Shown here piece by piece: positions 3,829 through 55,423 of a stretch of DNA of 64,000 nucleotides (its first letter is position 1; the number at the start of each line of letters is the position of its first letter). The position numbers and the translations under genes are program-made. The DNA lies in IMG/VR virus record IMGVR_UViG_3300037423_000296, positions 11,541 through 75,540 of that record; one strand, 5' to 3'. This stretch comes from a virus. Its lineage: Duplodnaviria > Heunggongvirae > Uroviricota > Caudoviricetes. The notes under the pieces are model-generated. The model did no database searches and had not been told where the DNA came from. It saw nothing but the letters and a program-made list of their open reading frames with translations.

Positions 3829-4171
3829 CAATTGTGTATTTTGTGAAATTGTGAAAACTGGGGATGCTGAAGAGTTCTACCGGCATGACAAATTTGTCGT
3901 TTCGTTCGTCCCTCTTAACCCAGTAACGCCGGGTCACAGATTGTTTGTACCAGCAAGACATGGTGATGACATTGCCGATGACCCCACATGGGGAACTCTT
4001 GCAGTAAGAGCGGCAGCAGATTACGCTAATGCAAATGGACACGACTTCAACCTGATTACTTCTGGTGGCTCATTCGCTACCCAGACAGTGTTCCATACGC
4101 ACATTCACTATGTGCCCCGTCGAGAAAACGACGGGCTCTTCTTGCCATGGACGGAGCACTGGTGTCTATGA
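3821..4171 (+). CDS. HIT-family (histidine triad) nucleotide hydrolase
   Basis: HTHIHYVP histidine-triad motif, CVFC N-terminus. Confidence 0.85.
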   Translation: MTDNCVFCEIVKTGDAEEFYRHDKFVVSFVPLNPVTPGHRLFVPARHGDDIADDPTWGTLAVRAAADYANANGHDFNLITSGGSFATQTVFHTHIHYVPRRENDGLFLPWTEHWCL

Positions 4172-4410
4172 GACTAGTAATCGAATATCTTGATGGTACC
4201 AAGGATATTACTGGTGTTCTCGATAATGTAGAAACCTGGGAAGAATTTAACAAGATGTTCAGCGGTGGACCAGTTCACAGCATGACGGTACCTAAGTCGG
4301 ATGTCGGAATGATGTGGATTCCGGGTTCAGCTATCAAGAAAATTTACGAATACGTTCCCGTGCAAGAACCTATCAAGGTAAAGAAGGTTCCAAAATGGAG
4401 TTCGAAATGA
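4147..4410 (+). CDS. hypothetical protein
   Basis: ORF track. Confidence 0.45.
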   Translation: MDGALVSMRLVIEYLDGTKDITGVLDNVETWEEFNKMFSGGPVHSMTVPKSDVGMMWIPGSAIKKIYEYVPVQEPIKVKKVPKWSSK

Positions 4411-12743: not shown

Positions 12744-13559
12744 GGCCTACAGACTGTCTGTCTGCCTTGTGAGTGCTAGGCATGCGTCGGAGTCCGCTTG
12801 TTTCGAGTGACTGTCTCCGAGTAGTCACTCACCCTTACCTGTGCCCACATCATCGCGTCGGTGTCTTGCATCCGCGCTAGCGCCATGTCCTAAGGGAACC
12901 TGCCGTGAATAGCATTCCGACCTTGCACGTCAGCCGGAGTATTCCAACGGGCCTTGAGATTCAGTTGTCCTGCTTACCCTGTGCGGGTTGTCCTGCTCTC
13001 CGCGCTTCCCTCGCGTGCCCGATGGGCTGACTTGCGAGTGCCTGTGCTCCGAGCGGAGCGGCTGGCGGGGTGTTTCGGTGTTGCAATGAGGACACTACGT
13101 AGGCCGTAGAGACGCACAAAGTCGTCAAGGCCCATATCCCATCATCGTTATCATTCCGTTATCAAAAACTACGCTCTGTGCATGAAATTAGCGCTCGCTA
13201 TCTACGCAGAGTGAGATTGAGCGTAGACAGTGTGTCAGTCTGTGAGACGGATTGTCTCAGCATTCGAGAAATAACCGACAATGATGTTCAATAAGGCCGA
13301 TTCCGAGCCTGTGCCTATGCAGTGTTTATCTATATGCGCTCCGCACAGGCCTGCCGTGAGCCTGTGAGCCTGCCTAGTGACTGTGCGCCTGTCTCAGCCG
13401 CAGACACTGCCGGTAGGCCTGTCGGCATGCGCTCCGAGACTGCCTGTCAGGTGACTTCGGAGGGTGCCTGTCTGTTGCTACAGGCAACATAGTTACTCAG
13501 AGTGAAAATCGCCTGTAATCGACGTTTAGCCTTCGGTAGGTATGTGACCCTAGCTAGGC

Positions 13560-13990
13560 ACTCTCAATCGCTTAGCAAGCGCTTTCCGAGATAACGCTTT
13601 CCGTAAACAACCTTTCCGATTGAAGCGGTTGTTTGAATCTTGAGCGCAGCACATTCGAACAAATGTTCGTTCGAACAGATTTTCGAAAATTCTCAATTAG
13701 TAAAGGTCCGTTCGTTTAGTAAGTCTGAGGTTACTTAGTAAAGGTTCGTTATTAATCCCGGCGGAATTAGTAAAGAAGCCTTCTTATCTATTCGAACAAG
13801 CGTTCGATTTGGTAAGCGCTTTCCCGGTAAACGCTTTCCGACAACGATTTTCATTCCCAACTGTGGGGGCCGGGGGCCATTTACGAATGGGGCTTACGAA
13901 AGCGGGAGTTTTACGACCGGGACTTTTAAAAGCGGGAGTTACGAATTACGAATTGATTTACAAAAGAGGAAAACCCCGGCTCTTTGCCGG
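13560..13990. repeat. repeat-dense non-coding hub: CGCTTTCCG x4, TTAGTAAAGGTyCGTT x2-3, CGAACA-NN-YGTTCG palindromes x2, TTACGAA x4, AGCGGGAGTT x2
   Basis: direct reading; no ORF >=60 aa from 12780 to 13809. Confidence 0.7.
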
Positions 13991-13998
13991 GGTCTCTC

Positions 13999-14190
13999 TT
14001 AGTATCTGGGAGTCACTGATTTGATTGCACCATCTCCAGCGCCGTGATTTCCGTCAGTCAGTTGCTCAAGAGTTTGCAGCAACGTTTCACGAACGTCATC
14101 CTTGACTGCCTGAGCAGTGTTGTCGATGCCGTAACAAGAAGCCCATTCGTCCTTGTCAACCTCTACAGTGACACTGAAGATTACCTTCAT
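13999..14190 (-). CDS. hypothetical protein
   Basis: ORF track. Confidence 0.45.
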   Translation of the reverse strand: MKVIFSVTVEVDKDEWASCYGIDNTAQAVKDDVRETLLQTLEQLTDGNHGAGDGAIKSVTPRY

Positions 14191-14194
14191 TTGT

Positions 14195-14334
14195 CAGTCC
14201 TCCGAGTTACGAGTCTGGACACGAACCTCAAAGCCGCCGACATAAGTGCCAGTGTTCAGGCCTTGAGTCACCTTCCGCGCTCCGAGACGAGTGTACGTCT
14301 TACGAGCCTGCGGACGACGAACGCGCTTACCCAT
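14195..14334 (-). CDS. small basic protein (46 aa)
   Basis: manual ORF MGKRVRRPQARK.. Confidence 0.3.
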
Positions 14335-14399
14335 AGCTTACTCCTTAATACGAACTTCCAGTTGAAAATCCGGGGTTTTCCCGGCTGCTTGTGAGTACT

Positions 14400-14428
14400 A
14401 CTCTAGTGCGTGAGAGTCAGCCTGTCAA
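14400..14428 (-). promoter_or_regulatory. promoter TTGACA-N17-TAGAGT
   Basis: consensus match on minus strand. Confidence 0.55.
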
Positions 14429-14634
14429 GTCCTGATTAGATGACTTCCAGTCTTGTCTAGGTGCTTCTGGTTGATGGTCCATACGAACATGTCATAGTCA
14501 ACGTTGACAGTCACGGGCTCTTGCCTGTCCCTGAGATATACGCGGGTTGTCCCATGAGGGTCTAGCTCGTCTTCCTCAGCAAATACAATGTCGTCTGTCT
14601 CAATGAATTGAGACTTGGTTACTTGTACCTTCAT
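14425..14634 (-). CDS. hypothetical protein
   Basis: ORF track. Confidence 0.45.
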   Translation of the reverse strand: MKVQVTKSQFIETDDIVFAEEDELDPHGTTRVYLRDRQEPVTVNVDYDMFVWTINQKHLDKTGSHLIRT

Positions 14635-14887
14635 CGGCGGTCCTTGTGCTGAGCCGTGCTAATCCAGTTGAGAGAATGACGCCTGATGCTATTACCCAAT
14701 CCCTCTTCTCGGAGGGTACTCATGAGTGGCAAGAGTCCCAAGATTGAGAGTGTGGACGACCCAACGCCTCCACGCAGGAGAACACCTAGGCCTTCAGCCT
14801 CCTCGCGGGAAAGCTCCAGTGTGTAACCGCCCTTTTCGACAACGACTACCTCAGTAACGTCTTCTCGCTTTGTCAGTGTTGCCATAT
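14631..14887 (-). CDS. hypothetical protein (start at MATLTKRE)
   Basis: ORF track; longer ATG at 14909 lies inside iteron array. Confidence 0.45.
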
Positions 14888-14891
14888 TTGT

Positions 14892-14966
14892 GACCGAAAA
14901 TCCTTTCAATTATGAATGCCGACCGAAAATCTGACCGAAAATCGACCGAAATCTTGACCGAAAATC
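14892..14966. repeat. iteron-like array: 5 direct copies of GACCGAAA(A)TC, last four at about 11-12 bp spacing
   Basis: copies at 14892, 14921, 14933, 14944, 14956. Confidence 0.8.
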
Positions 14967-14984
14967 CATTTGAAATCAGATTTC

Positions 14985-15344
14985 TCACTCAATTTCAAAT
15001 TTGAGACGCTTGAGAATTTCTGAATTCCAACCCGCCGTGTATTCGTGCGTGGTGACATCGTGAGTGTTGTTATTGAAAAGGACGTGCCCCCAACCATGAA
15101 TGAATTCATCCCATCGGACCATGTACCCACATTCATCACACCAAGGCTTACGACCGTTATCTAGGTACTTTTGGTATGCCTGGTCAACATAAGGCTTACG
15201 TTCGTCCAGCAAGAGCCGGTGAATCGTCTGCCGAGTCTCCCACACCTTTTCGTCAGCGTAGAGATTGCCAGTGTGTGGACTGGGTAGATTCTCTACCTCG
15301 TTGATGAGCTTGTTTAGCAGGTTGATTGCTTCCCAGTCCTTCAC
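14985..15344 (-). CDS. hypothetical protein
   Basis: ORF track. Confidence 0.5.
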   Translation of the reverse strand: MKDWEAINLLNKLINEVENLPSPHTGNLYADEKVWETRQTIHRLLLDERKPYVDQAYQKYLDNGRKPWCDECGYMVRWDEFIHGWGHVLFNNNTHDVTTHEYTAGWNSEILKRLKFEIE

Positions 15345-15502
15345 TTGGCTTCCACCATCTCAATCTGGAAATTGTCAATGGTGAACAACTGAATAACCGG
15401 GTTGTTTCCGTCGAAGGTAATCTCCACACGCTCACCAGACGGCAAGTCAACAATTACCTTGTCGTCCTCATCGTTGATACAGCGCCGGTCGATGTTCCAC
15501 AT

Positions 15503-15700
15503 TTAGACTCCTACGAGTTGACGAGCTTCACGCTCTAGCTTCTCTACCTTTAGGGACAATGCTAGGTTCTCCTGCCGTAGCCTGTCAAGCTCAGCGAGGA
15601 CGGCAATGTGGTGCGAATCGTGCCGGGTTGTGTTGCGAACATCAACGCCACATTCGGCGCACATCTTTGCCTCTCCTACGCCAATGTAGGTAGGCTTCAT
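15503..15700 (-). CDS. hypothetical protein (CxxC, possible Zn-binding)
   Basis: ORF track. Confidence 0.4.
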   Translation of the reverse strand: MKPTYIGVGEAKMCAECGVDVRNTTRHDSHHIAVLAELDRLRQENLALSLKVEKLEREARQLVGV

Positions 15701-15909
15701 TTATACTTCACCTCTTTGTATGAAAATGGTTCGGGAACCCAGCGGACTCCCTGAATTGCATATCTAGTGTTAGGCTTGCCGTGCTGTCTAATCCAAGCTT
15801 CGGCTTCCCATTCGGTCAGGTGGTCAAGGAATACCTTAGACCAGAATGGAGTGTCAGCATTGGTCACGTATTCCCATACATGCCAGTAGCGATGAGGGTA
15901 ATTCTCCAT
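15697..15909 (-). CDS. hypothetical protein
   Basis: ORF track. Confidence 0.45.
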   Translation of the reverse strand: MENYPHRYWHVWEYVTNADTPFWSKVFLDHLTEWEAEAWIRQHGKPNTRYAIQGVRWVPEPFSYKEVKYK

Positions 15910-15911
15910 CC

Positions 15912-16136
15912 TTACTCCTTGGCCGATGGTTCGGGGTTGAGGAATAGGTCAAGATAGTCAGCAGCTTGTTCGGTGTTGCCGAGAGCCCGAATGACAACCC
16001 CGCGCTCGTGGAGAGCATCAAGCGACGGAGCAATCTCAGCCTTGAGACTGTCATCCACCTCACCAAGAAGCTTGACAGCCTTGTCAAGGGCAGCTTTTGC
16101 TCGCTCAACCTTCTGCCGGTCTGACTTCTTCATCAT
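15912..16136 (-). CDS. hypothetical protein
   Basis: ORF track. Confidence 0.45.
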   Translation of the reverse strand: MMKKSDRQKVERAKAALDKAVKLLGEVDDSLKAEIAPSLDALHERGVVIRALGNTEQAADYLDLFLNPEPSAKE

Positions 16137-16324
16137 TCCTCCGGTGGATTTCTCTCGATGTATGTTTGGATTGTCGTATAGCCACCGAGAGCACTTCTCT
16201 TTGCGAAGAATTCCATCATCCGCATGTATTCTTCGGCACCCTCAATTGGCTCTTCCATGTCCCATTCAAGGAGCATGCGCATTCGCACTCTAGCCATTAC
16301 TCTTCCGGCTTCTCGCCGGTCCAC
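16133..16324 (-). CDS. hypothetical protein
   Basis: ORF track. Confidence 0.4.
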   Translation of the reverse strand: MDRREAGRVMARVRMRMLLEWDMEEPIEGAEEYMRMMEFFAKRSALGGYTTIQTYIERNPPEE

Positions 16325-16593
16325 AATTCGTGGGCCGAAATGGTAGAAGCCTGCGGAGTCTGCCTCTGCATTGCCTCAGCTTCAATTGCCTGAGCCGCCG
16401 ATGCAAGCCCGTTGACGAATACGAATGCCTCACGCAGCGAGCGCAATTCCAAGTCCGCTCCGCTAGCCAGGTGGACAATGTATCGGTCTCCCGGCTTACG
16501 CGGGTCAAGAATCCACGAGCCAATCCGGCGCTTGTCAGCGTGCATCGTGAGAGCCCGCTCGACGGATTCCTTGCTGTAACCCTTGCCTGCCAT
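16297..16593 (-). CDS. hypothetical protein
   Basis: ORF track; RBS and promoter upstream. Confidence 0.5.
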   Translation of the reverse strand: MAGKGYSKESVERALTMHADKRRIGSWILDPRKPGDRYIVHLASGADLELRSLREAFVFVNGLASAAQAIEAEAMQRQTPQASTISAHELWTGEKPEE

Positions 16594-16628
16594 GATGTCT
16601 CCCTACCTAGTGTTCCGTTGATGTATCT

Positions 16629-16657
16629 AGACTAACAGAGTCTAGCTTGAGAGTCAA
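16629..16657 (-). promoter_or_regulatory. promoter TTGACT-N17-TAGTCT
   Basis: consensus match. Confidence 0.55.
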
Positions 16658-16828
16658 TCGTTGTCGTACGGACCAAAAGTGCGGGTGACATCGAAGGTGA
16701 AAATCCGACCTTCCTCATCCTCAACGTGAACAACGGTAGGATGAAAGGCGTCAACCCGGCAGTTGAGATTCGGGTCGTCCTCATTGAGCAGTCGGACAAT
16801 CTTGGTGGCGAGCTTGATTCTGGTCATT
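16655..16828 (-). CDS. small hypothetical protein (57 aa)
   Basis: manual ORF MTRIKLATKIV.., GGGAG RBS. Confidence 0.4.
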
Positions 16829-16839
16829 GTAACTCCCTG

Positions 16840-17130
16840 TTATCGCGGGTCTTTGTGGTATTTGTAATAGAAAGCCAGGTTCGAACGAAACCGCTCTTTG
16901 TACGAGCCGATAGCTCTCTCTAGTTCGTTCTCTGGCCCGTCAGGCAATGCCTCATCCAGCTTATTGACAATGTTTGCCATGATGGCAACTGCTTCGGCTA
17001 GGTCGGAATTCGCAACCTGCCAAGCTTTTCCCTGCTCTATTGCGTAGTCCACCTCCCAGTGAAGTCGGTTCAATGCCGAACGTGCATCGCGTGCACGGAT
17101 ATCAACTCCTACGAATTGCATCTTCGGCAT
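16840..17130 (-). CDS. hypothetical protein
   Basis: ORF track. Confidence 0.5.
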   Translation of the reverse strand: MPKMQFVGVDIRARDARSALNRLHWEVDYAIEQGKAWQVANSDLAEAVAIMANIVNKLDEALPDGPENELERAIGSYKERFRSNLAFYYKYHKDPR

Positions 17131-17873: not shown

Positions 17874-19306
17874 GCATGAAGGGCTAGATGACCCCCGTTA
17901 AGAACCCATCTAGCCCTAGTGCTCTTCCGCACGACGGTTTGAGCAGTTAACCAATCAGGCACCTGACAAATGCTATTGGTTCTCTGTGCTTCCGGTTGTC
18001 AGCCTCACAGAGTGGGCTTATGCCTCCGTTATCTCAACCACCATTAGCACGGAAGCTACACTAATGGTGTGTAAAAGTGAAGAGAGCCAGCCGACGCATT
18101 GCATCACAGCAAAGCATTCAGTCTAAATGCCTTTCATCGTTGACTAGACGATTAAGCTCTCCCCAACTTGCGCTCCCAGCGGGAGTTGAACCCGCGCTAA
18201 TACATTGACAATGTATCGTGCTGCCGTAACACTTTGAGAGCAATCGCCGGGTTTTGTTAAGTGGCTCCCTGCTAATACCCGGCTGATTAGCAGAAATCTT
18301 GAGCCGATGAGTGAATGCGCCTACCCATTCCACAGGGCTTTAGTACGCATTCGCTAGTGGAATTCCCTAACTCGCCTTGAGCGTCGGGCTAGCCTCACCA
18401 CGTGTTTTTGTCGTTGCCATGACTAGTATTGGCTTTCCCGTCTCGCCAGACGTTCCACGCAATGAGTAACCTTTGACGTTATCGCCGGTTGCGGTCCTTG
18501 AATGCTACCCGGTAAACCGGACATCTTCACCTAACCTCACTGCCGCTCTATGCCTAAGGATGCTATTTATACTCGCATAGACGAGTGTTGAGGCGCATTA
18601 GCTGTCGTATGCTATGCGAATTGATAGGTCAGTCCGGGGCTCGTTCTACAGGTTCCAGCCTTCGCCACTTCAACCCGCTTCCACCCTAACCATTCCATTC
18701 TGGCTCTCCGCACAAGGGACTAGAACCCAAGCTCTCCTCAACGTGTCACCCCATCCGGTTAATTCCGGTCCTGCCAACCCCAGTTAAAGGCTGACTATGC
18801 TTTCCTGCTTAACGGCAGGCCTATACACTAATGGGAAGCTTATGGGGTGGACGCTAAGACCAGTGTTCTTCATTCCGGGCGTACCGGACTTCCACTTACG
18901 TCTCTTATCTAACACAAGACCCCGCAGAATTTCGAATCGGTGCCAGTTCACCCTGTGATTCTCCATTCTGACCCCGGCTTTTTCTAGCAAGCGTGACCAA
19001 GCCACCGGGGATTTGCTTTTGCTGGTGTGGGTGGCGTTTATACACTCTCCCCTAATCCGGGCGTACCCAGAAGCCACATGCCCATCTTGTCTAGTGTTAG
19101 ACCAGCAATTCGCTATTCAGTTGTCAAGGTGTTGCCTAACTTCCTTGGTTTGTATATCTTAATCTTGCCTTGATTCTCGGAGCTTGTCAAGTAGCTGTGG
19201 GAAGTTTTTCATCATCTCGGCCCACTGCTCAGACTCAGCCTTGAGACACTTGGCACACCGCTCCTCGTGCCAACCAGTAGTCTCACTACCCGGCTTGCAG
19301 TCGCAG

Positions 19307-33283: not shown

Positions 33284-33410
33284 CGAACTTCTCCTCCTGA
33301 ATACACCAGATGGTGTCGAAGCCGTTACCCTCTTCGTCCTTCGATTTAATGATGGGCAAGTCCTGGTTGAACTTCAGTAGTTCCTTTACCACATCTCCTA
33401 CGGTGTTCAC
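33186..33410 (-). CDS. hypothetical protein
   Basis: ORF track. Confidence 0.4.
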   Translation of the reverse strand: MNTVGDVVKELLKFNQDLPIIKSKDEEGNGFDTIWCIQEEKFVDGDEYPASWEDIENGEYGDDPQVETKVVIWG

Positions 33411-33592
33411 TCAACACTCCTTAGCTTGTCAGCGTGCTTGATAATCCATCTGGCAAGAGAACTTTCGGCATCTACCAATGCGGCGTATTCAACGTCCTGC
33501 AATTGCCACGCCTCAAACTTCTTCCTCGCCTTGTCATAGGCCTTGCGTGCCTCGGTTGCTCGTGTTATAAGCAGAGCCAGCTTCTCGTTCAT
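33407..33592 (-). CDS. hypothetical protein
   Basis: ORF track; CCTTTCGTAAAGGG motif immediately upstream of ATG. Confidence 0.45.
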   Translation of the reverse strand: MNEKLALLITRATEARKAYDKARKKFEAWQLQDVEYAALVDAESSLARWIIKHADKLRSVE

Positions 33593-33628
33593 TTTACCCC
33601 TTTACGAAAGGTCTCCAGAAGTCATGGA

Positions 33629-33656
33629 GAAACCCGGCCTTTTTCGACCGGGTTTC
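33629..33656. repeat. hairpin gaaacccgg-N10-ccgggtttc (possible terminator)
   Basis: read in sequence. Confidence 0.45.
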
Positions 33657-33727
33657 AACCAGAATACAACCAGATGACCAGAAATGCGACCGAAAATCCA
33701 GCCAAAAGCCCCAGTGTGACTAGAATT

Positions 33728-33943
33728 CTACCCAATAACTAGCAAATCCCTCGGTGCAAACCAGAGAGTGGAAATGCTACGACCAATCTCGTCTCTCGAC
33801 TCTTCAGAGAGGACTACCTTGACGGTTCGCTCGGGGTTGATTGGCCCTCTGTCACGCATCTCGCGGACGTGGCCGAAAAGTGTCTTGGTACCCCACTGAG
33901 ATGTCCATTCTGGTGTGGTTCTGACTCTATCTCCGATGTTCAT
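33728..33943 (-). CDS. hypothetical protein
   Basis: ORF track. Confidence 0.45.
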   Translation of the reverse strand: MNIGDRVRTTPEWTSQWGTKTLFGHVREMRDRGPINPERTVKVVLSEESRDEIGRSISTLWFAPRDLLVIG

Positions 33944-34176
33944 TCTACCTCCACCCGAGTGATTGCTCCACCGTCGTCAATGTAGAAGAAGCCCCCTTCC
34001 TTAGACCCGCCGACTGCCCGGTTACCATGCAAGTCGGGGTAGGCAAGGATGTCTTGAACAGTACAGCCGTTCTCTTTGTCCTGCTCTCGACGGGCATCCT
34101 CGAAGTTCCAAAAGGCTCGTGGTCCTGAGTTCCGACCTTCATAAATCCAAACTATAGCCAAATTGTTATGCCTCAA
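33940..34176 (-). CDS. hypothetical protein
   Basis: ORF track. Confidence 0.45.
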   Translation of the reverse strand: MRHNNLAIVWIYEGRNSGPRAFWNFEDARREQDKENGCTVQDILAYPDLHGNRAVGGSKEGGFFYIDDGGAITRVEVE

Positions 34177-34571
34177 ATCTTGTCGTTATAGAAATCATCA
34201 AGTAGTGAGTCAATGTCCATTACCTCTTCGCCCTCAGGCACCAGAACGCGGGTCTGGTCAAGGAAGAGGCTCACCTCATTGAGCGGGTACAGAACGTTCT
34301 GGTAGCCGCCGTCGAATCGTAGGTGCATGCCTACCATTAGCTGTGTGACCGAAAAACTGATTGAACCTTCACCGGCATATCCCATTGCTCGTTCACGGTT
34401 CACTACCGGCTGTACAGCTTCGCTCAGTAGCTCCCGGCCAAAGATAATGTCCGCGCCGGTCACGTTCTGTAGCCTAATCTCGAATGGTCGAGTCTCGTCG
34501 TAAATGAAATTGGTAACCATTTTCTGGTCACCGCCGACGCCTACATGACCTGTAATTGGGCGTGCAAACAT
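34173..34571 (-). CDS. SsgB/SsgA-like protein (SALP family) homolog
   Basis: recalled alignment to S. coelicolor SsgB: YDETRPFEI.. vs YDTADPYAV.., IIFGRELLSEAV vs WVFARDLLAEGL, SLFLDQTRVLVPEGEE vs SFLKRTDAAVPPGTE; ATG start chosen (track used GTG upstream). Confidence 0.6.
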   Translation of the reverse strand: MFARPITGHVGVGGDQKMVTNFIYDETRPFEIRLQNVTGADIIFGRELLSEAVQPVVNRERAMGYAGEGSISFSVTQLMVGMHLRFDGGYQNVLYPLNEVSLFLDQTRVLVPEGEEVMDIDSLLDDFYNDKI

Positions 34572-34798
34572 GCCCCAGTTCCCCACCTCTCGTGTCCCCT
34601 GCTCCCCCACCTTGCCCTCTGCTGGACACGATGCTGGGAGGAATCCTACCTGTTAAACGGTTTGAGCCGCAAAGCGTTACGTAACGCTTAGGTCTCGGCC
34701 TGTCCACAGCCTGTGGACATCCTATGTCACCTGTAGTGACACTACAAGTCCACGGAGTGACAAGACCGGGTTCCTTTACGAAACCCGGTCTACGACAA

Positions 34799-54697: not shown

Positions 54698-54712
54698 CTC
54701 TTCCTCTCTAAT

Positions 54713-54790
54713 TGTGGAGTCGCGGGGAATTGAACCCCGGTCCTTTGCATTCAATCGTACATCCGAATTACAGCCATCCCTATTCTTTAG
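54713..54790 (-). ncRNA. tRNA-like fragment (perfect T-arm CGGGG-UUCAAUU-CCCCG; no acceptor partner found)
   Basis: manual reading. Confidence 0.3.
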
Positions 54791-55108
54791 ACCTTTACGA
54801 TTGAAGGTGGTCCCAGGATAAGTCCGTCTACCTCTGGCCTTTTAAACTGATGCCGAGCAGTAGGGGGGGTGAACAGTTTGTAGGCGAAGCCACTGTTCGA
54901 TTTCCACCACTGACCTTTCTGTTCCTAGGCAGTCAGCGCCCGATGCTCAATCCTCAGACTGAAGCAAGGTCGTACTCAGCGCAAAGCGCCTCGTACTCTG
55001 CATCAATGTTGTCAGTTGCAGTTATTGTTTGTCAAGTGTTTAACGACTCTCTCAACGAAGTCGGGCTGCGTTCATACTCTCTAGTTCAAAGTCGATACCT
55101 TTCGACCC

Positions 55109-55423
55109 CTAAGGCAAATATACTTTTGCCAAGTTATTGTCTACAAGTAGTTTATTGAGACTTTCAGTACCGGCGAAAACCTCTGCCAGCCAGCGACCGT
55201 ACTTCTCTTTCTTGTAGGTATTGATTGTAACTGTTGGATTCTTTGCAAAGAAGGACTTTACGAAGGCTGTTGCCTCTGCCCATCCTACCTGACCACGCTC
55301 TGGCGTGTCAATTCCATACAATCTGAAAACCGTATCAACTCTAATATCAAATCCCAGGTCTACTGTTAGTTCTACAGTATCACCATCTACCGCTCTAACA
55401 AAGTCTGCCTTGTATTGGTACAT
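55109..55423 (-). CDS. thermonuclease (staphylococcal nuclease-like, SNase domain)
   Basis: VRAVDGDTVEL..RLYGIDTPE..KYGRWLA motifs. Confidence 0.8.
   Translation of the reverse strand: MYQYKADFVRAVDGDTVELTVDLGFDIRVDTVFRLYGIDTPERGQVGWAEATAFVKSFFAKNPTVTINTYKKEKYGRWLAEVFAGTESLNKLLVDNNLAKVYLP

What the first reader, a model, noticed from the sequence alone, without database searches (positions are those of the whole stretch)
14892..14966. Five tandem GACCGAAAATC iterons at helical-turn spacing, with a sixth copy at 33688
Copies lie at 14892, 14921, 14933, 14944 and 14956. The last four are 11-12 bp apart, directly in the 5' region of gene 14631..14887. The same 11-mer recurs at 33688-33698 next to a hairpin and the CCTTTACGAAAGG motif. 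Phased direct repeats are classic cooperative binding sites for a phage regulator or initiator.
Basis: seen in the sequence. Interest (0 to 1): 0.7.

Follow-up and report, generated by a model that had tools for sequence, protein, structure and literature searches.

The report
Conserved 11-nt repeat array gating a phage gene
A short 11-letter sequence repeated four to seven times sits directly in front of one small gene in a group of uncultivated Streptomyces-type phages; it is a real, conserved control element, most likely a docking array for an unknown regulator, but it is not a replication origin.

Summary
GACCGAAAATC occurs 5 times in 64 kb against 0.04 expected. Four exact copies and one 10-nt variant fill the 97-bp gap in front of minus-strand gene B (14631-14885). 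The last exact copy is at 33688. On the coding strand the unit reads GATTTTCGGTC.

Six divergent metagenomic relatives carry the same unit, or RATTTCTGGTC, in 4-7 copies in front of their gene B homologue. Those homologues are only 39-58% identical in protein and 51-69% in DNA. Spacers, copy number and the upstream neighbour all differ. The last unit is always fused to a GAAAGGA Shine-Dalgarno and lies 2-6 nt from the ATG.

The copy at 33688 belongs to a second, degenerate array in front of gene G. That array is also conserved, and it overlaps a strong sense-strand hairpin.

Unit spacings cluster near 12, 18, 24 and 30 bp, so helical phasing is not conserved. No sigma-70-like promoter, initiator gene or skew change accompanies the array.

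My best reading is a cis-regulatory operator array, probably read on the transcript (0.4). A DNA operator or roadblock is the close rival (0.3). Origin iterons are unlikely. The binding factor is unknown, and gene B has no recognisable fold.

The parts
14956..14966 (-). Unit 1, GATTTTCGGTC, preceded by tttcaaatG
   Evidence: Exact match. The CAAATG+unit composite recurs in L034, L080, L094 and L095.
14944..14953 (-). Unit 2, the 10-nt variant GATTTCGGTC
   Evidence: Read. L030 has GATTTCCGGTC at this position. The same 10-nt form, AATTTCGGTC, occurs at site 2 of L100.
14933..14943 (-). Unit 3, GATTTTCGGTC
14921..14931 (-). Unit 4, GATTTTCGGTC. Units 3 and 4 form the 'unit-A-unit' pair, which is also present in L034, L080 and L092.
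14892..14902 (-). Unit 5, GATTTTCGGTC. It fills the spacer between the Shine-Dalgarno sequence and the ATG, with 6 nt left before the ATG.
   Evidence: A unit sits in the same place in all seven lineage variants, 2-6 nt from the ATG.
14901..14907 (-). GAAAGGA, a Shine-Dalgarno-like sequence fused to unit 5 and sharing its GA
   Evidence: Read and conserved in every lineage. The aligned spacing to the ATG is 13 nt, at the long end of this phage's usual 4-10 nt.
14972..14984 (.). 13-bp palindrome GAAATC-N-GATTTC directly upstream of the array, made of partial units in inverted orientation
   Evidence: Read. Relatives have an inverted or complementary segment at the same place, and it forms a hairpin with unit 1.
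14631..14885 (-). Gene B, 84 aa. It belongs to a family of 80-90-aa proteins of unknown function and is the gene the array always accompanies.
   Evidence: No Pfam, PHROG or NCBIfam hit. AF2 model with pLDDT 72 and no fold match.
14425..14634 (-). Gene C, 69 aa. Its start overlaps the gene B stop (ATGA), and it follows gene B in every relative.
14985..15344 (-). Gene A, 119 aa, with a CxxC...HxxxH motif. It is the upstream neighbour in the window but is not linked to the array in relatives.
   Evidence: In L080 it is separated from the array by an Endonuclease_7 gene, and it is absent upstream of the array in L092 and L093.
33688..33698 (-). Site 2, unit u1, GATTTTCGGTC. It is invariant in L099 and L100.
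33676..33686 (-). Site 2, unit u2, CATTTCTGGTC, 12 nt after u1. Its GGTC forms the base of the downstream hairpin.
   Evidence: PWM score 9.9. Conserved as CATTTTTGGTC and CATTTTGGGTC in relatives. Fold.
33718..33727 (-). Site 2, unit u0, AATTCTAGTC, which is AATTCTGGTC in L089, L099 and L100. It lies directly after the stop codon of gene F.
33610..33679 (-). Long sense-strand hairpin. Its 5' arm starts at the GGTC of u2 and runs through the degenerate distal units. It contains the inner perfect stem GAAACCCGG/CCGGGTTTC and ends in GACC just before UUUCGUAAAGG.
   Evidence: Fold energy -47.2 kcal/mol, z -2.2, against -25.2 kcal/mol, z -0.4, for the antisense strand. Equivalent hairpins occur in L099 (z -5.4) and L100 (z -6.3), with different arm sequences.
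33599..33611 (-). CCTTTCGTAAAGG mini-hairpin that encloses the Shine-Dalgarno sequence of gene G
   Evidence: Five invariant pairs in the consensus fold of four sequences. The sequence is read.
33407..33592 (-). Gene G, 61 aa, unknown function. It is the gene downstream of site 2.

Best explanation
The array is a lineage-specific cis-regulatory operator. It consists of several copies of an asymmetric 11-nt unit (consensus RATTTYYGGTC, usually GATTTTCGGTC), all in the sense orientation, at the 5' end of the gene B-C operon. A second, degenerate array lies in front of gene G. I think it most likely acts on the transcript. The array is co-transcribed with the upstream genes, and a sequence-specific, multimerising phage factor binds the units on the RNA. 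At gene B, the unit fused to the Shine-Dalgarno sequence would be covered, so translation initiation is gated. In most relatives unit 1 is also the 3' arm of a hairpin. At gene G, the units form the base and 5' arm of a terminator-like hairpin just before the Shine-Dalgarno sequence, so binding would change hairpin formation and read-through. What is shown: the array is real, it is under purifying selection, it is tied to gene B, it overlaps the ribosome-binding site, and sense-strand hairpins involve units. What is inferred: that a protein binds the units, that binding is on RNA rather than DNA, the direction of regulation, and the identity of the binder. Gene B, acting as an autoregulator, is the obvious candidate but has no supporting evidence.
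For: (1) The array is far beyond chance: 5 exact copies against 0.04 expected, and PWM hits occur only at two intergenic loci.
(2) Units are under selection and spacers are not. The same unit stands in front of gene B homologues in L034, L080, L092, L094 and L095, and the variant RATTTCTGGTC in L093. Those genes are 51-69% identical in DNA. L094 and L095 have 4 substitutions and a 6-nt indel in the spacers but no change in 44 unit nucleotides.
(3) The array follows gene B, not its upstream neighbour. That neighbour is gene A, an inserted Endonuclease_7 gene, a 59-aa gene or a 67-aa gene, depending on the lineage.
(4) The last unit is always fused to GAAAGGA and lies 2-6 nt from the ATG. The start codon is confirmed by homologues.
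(5) No sigma-70-like promoter overlaps the array in the window, L034, L092 or L094. There is also no terminator between gene A and the array in the window, so the array should be transcribed.
(6) Spacings of about 12, 18, 24 and 30 bp are not helically phased.
(7) Unit-containing hairpins occur at both sites and are built from different partner sequences in different lineages. They use G-U pairs exactly where the DNA inverted repeat is imperfect. They fold 8-22 kcal/mol better, with more negative z-scores, on the sense strand than on the antisense strand in 6 of 6 segments.
(8) Site 2 is conserved in relatives whose gene G is 59-72% identical in protein.
Against: No binding protein has been identified. 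Gene B has no RNA- or DNA-binding signature. Short tandem direct repeats are far more often DNA operators than RNA operators. The window has a perfect 13-bp DNA palindrome (GAAATC-N-GATTTC) upstream of the array that cannot form an RNA hairpin. The array proper shows no significant RNA structure, with z between -0.1 and -0.4 in the window, L080 and L093. The simple terminator scan does not call the 5' hairpins of L034, L092 or L094. Only two independent loci are available, so strand consistency is weak evidence. Sense-strand folding may partly reflect the G+U richness of that strand, although the z-scores correct for composition. Actinobacterial or phage-specific promoters without a -35 element would be missed by the promoter scan.
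Confidence: 0.4

Rival explanations
1. The array is a DNA-level operator or roadblock. A sequence-specific DNA-binding protein, from the phage or the host, binds the asymmetric units on double-stranded DNA. It would either repress or activate an unrecognised promoter of gene B, or block elongating RNA polymerase at the start of the gene B operon and of gene G. The second mode would resemble the orientation-dependent stoperators of Cluster A mycobacteriophages, but in tandem.
For: Tandem 11-12-bp direct repeats are a classic protein-binding architecture, and the tight copies are 11-12 bp apart. Inverted or partial units lie upstream of the direct copies in the window (13-bp palindrome), in L034 (GACCGAAAGTC) and in L094, as in many operators. 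All units share one orientation relative to transcription and sit in short intergenic gaps inside operons. That matches what is described for stoperators (PMC9283540). The reframed unit GGTCA + AT-rich tail loosely recalls the 11-bp direct-repeat boxes of OmpR/PhoB-type regulators; this comparison is from my own knowledge and was not tested.
Against: No sigma-70-like promoter overlaps the array in four lineages. Spacings of 18 and 28-30 bp place units on different faces of the helix. The L092 5' hairpin pairs unit 1 with a partner that is not an inverted copy of the unit, and it needs G-U pairs. The strict fusion of the last unit to the Shine-Dalgarno sequence has no obvious meaning for a DNA site. 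Gene B shows no DNA-binding fold, and no repressor-like gene was found next to either site.
Confidence: 0.3
2. The repeats are replication-origin iterons bound by a phage initiator, as the first reader proposed as an alternative.
For: There are several direct repeats with a partly 11-12-bp period. A 39-bp AT-rich stretch with an inverted repeat lies next to them at 14967-15005. A large repeat-rich non-coding region lies 0.9 kb downstream at 13130-13990.
Against: The array is locked to the start codon of one small gene in every lineage. A second, related array sits in front of another small gene. The units are 11 nt long rather than the usual 17-22 nt. No initiator, helicase-loader or Rep-like gene is adjacent. 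Cumulative GC skew runs smoothly through 14.9 kb and turns only at the strand switch near 6 kb. Phasing is not conserved.
Confidence: 0.05
3. The array is a sequence-independent or weakly specific structural element, or a variable tandem repeat. It could be phased T-tracts giving bent DNA or an UP-like element, or a slippage- and recombination-prone repeat marking a module boundary, with no dedicated binding factor.
For: Each unit carries a T4 tract. Copy number (4-7) and spacers change quickly, even between near-identical strains. The upstream neighbour changes at exactly this point, and a homing-endonuclease gene inserted here in L080-L083. Unrelated genomes contain microsatellite-like tandem arrays of the same 11-mer.
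Against: The non-T positions A2, G8, G9 and T10 are invariant in 27 of 27 units, and C11 is kept in 25 of 27. This holds across lineages whose coding DNA is about 50-60% identical. That pattern indicates base-specific recognition rather than curvature or neutral slippage. The position relative to the Shine-Dalgarno sequence is fixed.
Confidence: 0.1

Closest known systems
Stoperators of Cluster A mycobacteriophages (L5 gp71-type repressor sites)
   Same: Both are actinobacteriophage elements. Both are short asymmetric sites in short intergenic gaps inside operons, with an orientation that follows the direction of transcription (PMC9283540).
   Different: Stoperators are 13-mers scattered singly at more than 20 places in a temperate phage genome, and a known HTH repressor binds them. 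Here the units are 11 nt long and arranged in tandem arrays. Only two loci occur in 64 kb. The sequence is unrelated, the phage is related to large, tRNA-rich Streptomyces phages, and no repressor was found.
Start-associated sequences (SAS/ESAS) of Cluster K mycobacteriophages
   Same: Both are conserved motifs placed directly upstream of start codons and merged with the ribosome-binding site. Both are often preceded by an inverted-repeat element and both follow particular gene families across genomes. The function of SAS is unknown, and a role in translation is suspected (PMC3203893).
   Different: SAS is a single 13-bp copy in front of many genes. Here there are 4-7 tandem copies in front of one gene family, plus one second site, and the sequence is unrelated.
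RNA operators made of repeated motifs: the TRAP (G/U)AG repeats of Bacillus, and the T4 gene 32 leader (own knowledge, not looked up here)
   Same: Both have repeated single-stranded motifs in a leader. These motifs either overlap the Shine-Dalgarno and start region, which controls translation, or compete with a terminator or antiterminator hairpin, which controls read-through. The gene 32 leader combines a 5' structured element with repeats that run up to the ribosome-binding site of the autoregulated gene.
   Different: The unit here is 11 nt long, not 3-5 nt. No TRAP-like or OB-fold protein was found, and RNA binding is not shown.
Centromere- or operator-type repeat arrays bound by ribbon-helix-helix proteins: R1 parC/ParR and pSM19035 omega heptads (own knowledge)
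   Same: Both have contiguous short direct repeats, with occasional inverted copies, directly upstream of a small operon whose first product might bind them.
   Different: Those arrays surround a defined promoter and are contiguous. Here no promoter was detected and the spacings are irregular. The AF2 model of gene B gave no ribbon-helix-helix match.
Origin iterons of plasmids and phages (lambda ori, P4 ori/crr)
   Same: Both consist of several direct repeats in a non-coding stretch.
   Different: Here there is no linked initiator and no origin context. The unit is short, the array is fixed to a start codon, and there are two gene-proximal sites.

Membership tests
Replication-origin iterons | Linked initiator (Rep/O/alpha-type) gene at or next to the repeats | tested here: not met
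   Neighbouring genes A-E and nearby ORFs have no Pfam, PHROG or NCBIfam hit to initiators. The only annotated neighbour is a SprT-like protein 2.2 kb away.
Replication-origin iterons | Placement independent of any one gene, with an AT-rich unwinding region and a composition or skew signature | tested here: not met
   The array is fixed 2-6 nt from the gene B ATG in 7 lineage variants. Cumulative GC skew shows no turn at 14.9 kb. A 39-bp AT-rich stretch is present.
Replication-origin iterons | Replication initiates at the site | not testable with these tools
   This needs experiments on an isolate.
Stoperator-type asymmetric repressor sites (Cluster A mycobacteriophages) | Asymmetric site whose orientation follows the direction of transcription | tested here: met
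   27 of 28 units at site 1 are in the sense orientation, and so are all units scored at site 2. Only two independent loci are available.
Stoperator-type asymmetric repressor sites (Cluster A mycobacteriophages) | Many (>20) single sites dispersed over the genome, including at an early promoter | tested here: not met
   Only two loci, both clustered arrays, occur in 64 kb. No promoter overlap was found.
Stoperator-type asymmetric repressor sites (Cluster A mycobacteriophages) | Cognate gp71-like HTH repressor encoded by the phage | not tested
   Only genes near the two sites were scanned, and none is repressor-like. The full genome is not available.
Start-associated sequences (Cluster K) | Conserved motif immediately upstream of the start codon and merged with the ribosome-binding site | tested here: met
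   GAAAG-GATTTTCGGTC-(2-6 nt)-ATG is found in all lineages.
Start-associated sequences (Cluster K) | Single copy in front of a dozen or more genes per genome, with the SAS consensus sequence | tested here: not met
   The arrays are tandem, occur at two genes only, and have an unrelated sequence.
Ribbon-helix-helix operator arrays (ParR/parC, omega) | Array overlaps or flanks the promoter of the operon that encodes the binding protein | tested here: inconclusive
   The array is directly upstream of gene B-C, but no sigma-70-like promoter was detected in four lineages. Non-canonical promoters would be missed.
Ribbon-helix-helix operator arrays (ParR/parC, omega) | First gene product has a ribbon-helix-helix fold | tested here: not met
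Repeat-motif RNA operators (TRAP-like, gene 32-like) | Repeats lie in the transcribed leader and overlap the Shine-Dalgarno and start region, or an arm of a terminator or antiterminator hairpin | tested here: met
   The last unit lies between the Shine-Dalgarno sequence and the ATG. Units form hairpin arms at both sites, with a sense-strand preference in 6 of 6 segments. Transcription through the array is inferred from the lack of a promoter or terminator, not shown.
Repeat-motif RNA operators (TRAP-like, gene 32-like) | Oligomeric RNA-binding protein that recognises the repeats | not testable with these tools
   No candidate has a recognisable RNA-binding domain.
OmpR/PhoB-type direct-repeat boxes (PHO-box-like) | Contiguous head-to-tail 11-bp units | tested here: not met
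   Only some neighbouring units are 11-12 bp apart. 18, 23-24 and 28-30 bp are equally common. Similarity to the PHO box is limited to a GGTCA core, recalled from memory.

The most novel reading that the evidence does not exclude
The 11-nt units are RNA recognition elements for a new small phage-encoded RNA-binding regulator, possibly the gene B family itself. This protein would autoregulate its own translation by covering the unit fused to the Shine-Dalgarno sequence. It would control read-through of unit-containing hairpins at a second gene. That would be a TRAP-like logic built from unrelated parts, in an uncultivated clade of large Streptomyces-type phages.
Probability: 0.2. Interest if true: 0.7.

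Novelty: new member of a known kind. Interest (0 to 1): 0.42.

Why it matters
Regulatory signals of large, tRNA-rich actinobacteriophages are almost unknown, and this clade exists only as metagenome contigs. The array is a clean, conserved cis-element with a defined consensus, a defined target gene family and a second target. It gives a handle for finding the regulator, for example by pull-down or by covariation with the TTTTCGG and TTTCTGG variants. It also helps with defining a temporal gene class and with annotating related contigs. If it acts on RNA, it would add a new repeat-based translational and antitermination switch. If it acts on DNA, it would be a tandem relative of stoperators in a phage group where none are known.

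Tried and rejected
1. Megablast of 13000-17000 against INPHARED found nothing. tblastn of gene B and of two family members against INPHARED also found nothing. No isolated phage carries the gene or the array.
2. An IMG/VR scan for a tandem unit pattern gave 0 hits. IMG/VR searches with gene A and with a gene B alignment found no relatives.
3. Loci of the SprT-like neighbour in IMG/VR (L001-L027, including ~130-kb relatives) lack the motif apart from isolated single hits.
4. Metagenome and GTDB-genome scans for GATTTTCGGTC-N0-8-ATTTTCGGTC gave 45 and 29 loci. All are unrelated microsatellite-like repeats with no protein similarity to the window. There is therefore no evidence for a host regulon using the motif.
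5. I considered a CATAAT -10 element between units 4 and 5. It is not conserved in any relative.
6. I considered the upstream TTG (14909) as the gene B start, which would put unit 5 inside the coding sequence. I rejected it because homologues start at the ATG-aligned residue.
8. I looked for an antisense-strand promoter formed by TTGACC + GAAAAT from neighbouring units. The TT is present in one window unit only and is not conserved.
9. A literature search for the motif strings returned only unrelated primer sequences.
10. A distant gene B homologue (P0016; loci L097 and L098, sequence read in L097; 35% identity) has no array and is translationally coupled to a paralogue. The array is therefore restricted to one subclade of the family.

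Full report
**1. What the window is.** From about 6 kb onward the genes run on the minus strand. The window carries 32 tRNA genes and a tmRNA. A 638-aa protein is 36% identical to rIIA-like proteins of ~130-kb Streptomyces phages. A SprT-like protein is 62-70% identical to proteins of ~130-kb IMG/VR contigs. An SsgA-like gene lies in the window, and WhiB and Lsr2-like genes occur in near-identical contigs, which points to a sporulating actinomycete host. No isolated phage matches at the DNA level. The window is therefore part of an uncultivated, distant relative of the large tRNA-rich Streptomyces phages.

**2. The observation.**
- GACCGAAAATC occurs exactly at 14892, 14921, 14933, 14956 and 33688. 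The expectation is 0.04, and no shuffle of 100 reached 5.
- The copy reported at 14944 is a 10-nt variant. Tandem Repeats Finder reports the array with period 12.
- On the coding (minus) strand the region reads: TGA (stop of gene A) gaaatctgatttcaaatg-GATTTTCGGTC-aa-GATTTCGGTC-GATTTTCGGTC-a-GATTTTCGGTC-ggcattcataattgaaag-GATTTTCGGTC-acaaat-ATG (gene B).
- Gene B is 14631-14885. An in-frame TTG at 14909 is not the start, because about 20 remote homologues found by an exhaustive HMMER search all begin at the residue aligned with the ATG.
- A PWM built from 27 units finds strong hits only at this array and at 33676-33698. Weaker hits are at the background rate.

**3. Comparative evidence at site 1.** Exact-protein look-ups recovered near-identical strain contigs with an identical array (L030-L033). 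More useful were the divergent relatives reached through homologues of genes A and B:
- L034, with gene B 58% identical in protein.
- L080-L083, reached through gene A.
- L092, with gene B 50% identical.
- L093, with gene B 49% identical.
- L094-L096, with gene B 39% identical.

Gene B DNA identity among these lineages is 51-69%. Every one of them has 4-7 units directly upstream of gene B. The unit is GATTTTCGGTC or AATTTTCGGTC in five lineages. L093 has the variant RATTTCTGGTC.

In 27 units, positions A2, T4, G8, G9 and T10 never vary, and almost all changes are transitions. Spacers, copy number and the upstream gene all differ between lineages. The upstream gene is gene A in the window. It is an Endonuclease_7 gene inserted on the opposite strand in L080-L083, a 59-aa gene in L092 and a 67-aa gene in L093.

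L094 and L095 encode the same gene B protein and differ by about 0.8% in the flanks. Inside the array they differ by four substitutions and a 6-nt indel. All of these changes are in spacers, and none is in the 44 unit nucleotides.

A more distant homologue (35% identity; P0016, loci L097 and L098, sequence read in L097) has no array.

The units are therefore under purifying selection, and the array is a 5' element of the gene B operon. Gene C overlaps the gene B stop codon and follows it everywhere.

**4. Architecture.**
- The last unit is always fused to GAAAG, giving GAAAGGATTTTCGGTC, and lies 2-6 nt from the ATG.
- GAAAGGA is the only Shine-Dalgarno candidate. Its aligned spacing to the start is 9-13 nt, against 4-10 nt for most genes of this phage. 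The unit therefore is the spacer of the ribosome-binding site.
- Start-to-start distances between units cluster at 10-13, 17-18, 23-24 and 28-30 bp, and site 2 shows 30, 12 and 29-30 bp. This pattern looks like steps of about 6 and is not helical phasing. I cannot explain it.
- No sigma-70-like promoter overlaps the array in the window, L034, L092 or L094. The CATAAT between units 4 and 5 of the window is absent from all relatives.
- Promoter-like sites do exist further upstream, at 15588-15559 by the scan and TTGACT-17-TAGTCT near 16648 by eye. A strong terminator closes the gene block at 13996-13970. The array is therefore most simply intercistronic RNA.

**5. Site 2.** The copy at 33688 is the best unit of a second array between gene F (stop at 33728) and gene G (ATG at 33592).
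- In the window and in relatives whose gene G is 72% (L099) and 59% (L100) identical, the order is u0 (G)AATTCTGGTC, u1 GATTTTCGGTC (invariant), u2 CATTTYKGGTC 12 nt later, and a distal AATTYCCGGTC or AATTTCGGTC.
- From the GGTC of u2 onward the sense RNA forms a long hairpin that ends in GACC just before UUUCGUAAAGG. The latter is itself a mini-hairpin enclosing the Shine-Dalgarno sequence.
- Fold z-scores are -2.2 for the window, -5.4 for L099 and -6.3 for L100.
- The stem sequences differ between lineages with compensatory changes. For example, GGCUGGUU/AACCAGCC in L099 corresponds to GUGUGGUU/AACC-CAC in L100. I read these. With only three sequences no statistics are possible.
- There is no room for a promoter between the hairpin and gene G, so transcripts for gene G must pass through the hairpin.

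**6. Hairpins at site 1.**
- In L034, L092 and L094/L095, unit 1 is the 3' arm of a hairpin whose 5' arm differs in each lineage. It is a full inverted unit in L034, flank-based complementarity in L092 and a partial inverted unit in L094 (whole-segment z-scores -2.35, -1.2 and -3.6).
- Where the DNA inverted repeat is imperfect, the RNA has G-U pairs.
- I folded both strands of six segments, three from each site. The sense strand is 8-22 kcal/mol more stable and has the more negative z-score in all six.
- The window itself has a 13-bp DNA palindrome (14972-14984) in place of such a hairpin. That palindrome cannot fold as RNA, and this counts against the RNA reading.

**7. The binder.**
- Gene B belongs to a family of 80-90-aa proteins. 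The family was found only in metagenomic and other uncurated sequence collections, and no isolated phage in INPHARED carries a member. It has no Pfam, PHROG or NCBIfam assignment.
- Genes A, C, D, E, F and G are equally uninformative.
- The motif does not occur as an array in relatives outside this clade. Tandem copies elsewhere in metagenomes and genomes are unrelated microsatellite-like repeats. There is thus no sign of a host regulon.

**8. Interpretation.** I put the probability that this is a selected cis-regulatory element of gene B, and of gene G, at about 0.85. How it works is not settled.
- I favour an RNA-level operator (0.4). The reasons are the fusion of the last unit to the ribosome-binding site, the absence of any promoter, the unphased spacing, and the sense-strand hairpins built from units at both sites.
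- A DNA operator or a stoperator-like roadblock is the close rival (0.3). Tandem short repeats are usually DNA sites, and actinophages offer a precedent for orientation-dependent intergenic sites.
- Origin iterons (0.05) and a factor-independent structural or variable repeat (0.1) are unlikely, for the reasons given under those rivals.
- Cluster K start-associated sequences are the closest described analogue of a motif merged with the ribosome-binding site, and their function is also unknown.

**9. Novelty and interest.** The motif, its link to the gene B family and the second site are undescribed; the motif strings occur in the literature only as primers. As a kind of element, however, a repeat array that controls a phage gene is familiar. 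I rate it a new member of a known kind, with moderate interest (0.42). It would be more interesting if the RNA-operator reading with a new small RNA-binding protein proves right (probability about 0.2).

Noticed in passing
window 18533-18586 (-): There is an Rfam Pistol ribozyme match at 37.9 bits, against a gathering score of 34.5. The core ACUCGUCU..GCGAGUAUAAAUA is conserved. It lies in a ~450-nt non-coding stretch next to tRNA-Asp (18170-18241).
   Followed up: partly
window 13130-13990: This is an ~860-bp non-coding, repeat-rich region just downstream of the gene B-E block. It holds separate clusters of several short direct repeats (TTCGTAA, GGAAAGCG, CTTTACTAA, GTTCGAA, GACAGGC). At least part of it (the GGAAAGCG section) appears to recur in the divergent relative L092 around 4016-4261, judged from similar ORF translations. 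It could be an origin, a set of binding arrays or a non-coding RNA.
   Followed up: no
window 40217-62166 (-), tmRNA at 54712-55109: The window carries 32 tRNA genes and a tmRNA with the tag peptide ATDNIDAEYEALCAEYDLASV. This is unusually rich for a 64-kb stretch and is typical of the large Streptomyces phage clusters.
   Followed up: no
L080 10354-10740 (also L081-L083): A 128-aa Endonuclease_7 (PF02945) gene is inserted on the opposite strand, exactly between gene A and the array. It replaces the upstream part of the array and looks like a free-standing homing endonuclease. A 9-bp-stem hairpin (ATCCGAATT...AATTCGGAT) lies between it and the array.
   Followed up: partly
window 14335-14428 (-): A promoter-like TTGACA-17-TAGAGT (14428-14400) is followed by the hairpin CCGGGAAAACCCCGG + ATTTTC and a strong AAGGAG Shine-Dalgarno sequence. 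These precede gene D (14194-14334), a 46-aa, very basic protein conserved in L092 (RKTYTRLGA... motif). This may be an attenuator-controlled small nucleic-acid-binding protein.
   Followed up: no
window 14985-15344 (-): Gene A (119 aa) carries a C-x2-C-x10-H-x3-H arrangement (WCDECGYMVRWDEFIHGWGH) that looks like a zinc finger. It has no database family.
   Followed up: no
window 34173-34610 (-); L084 1072-1383 and 11613-11858: The phage encodes an SsgA-like protein (Pfam 25.1 bits, at the cut-off). Near-identical contigs also encode WhiB-like and Lsr2-like proteins. These are host developmental and nucleoid regulators typical of Streptomyces phages.
   Followed up: no
site 1 and site 2 in all lineages (window 14892-14966 and 33646-33727; L034, L080, L092-L095, L099, L100): Unit-to-unit distances fall into classes near 12, 18, 24 and 30 nt, that is, steps of about 6. 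Neither helical phasing nor any model I considered explains this.
   Followed up: partly
window 33599-33611 (-) and 13880-13960 (-): The palindrome CCTTTCGTAAAGG encloses the Shine-Dalgarno sequence of gene G and is invariant in relatives. Its core TTCGTAA is also the unit of one of the repeat clusters in the 13.1-14.0 kb non-coding region.
   Followed up: no
L058, L106, L111, L116 and L127 (unrelated metagenome and genome contigs): The same 11-mer forms long microsatellite-like tandem arrays in unrelated bacteria, such as Lachnospiraceae, Lysobacteraceae and cyanobacteria. None shows any similarity to the phage. This is a reminder that a tandem occurrence alone is not evidence of relatedness.
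   Followed up: yes
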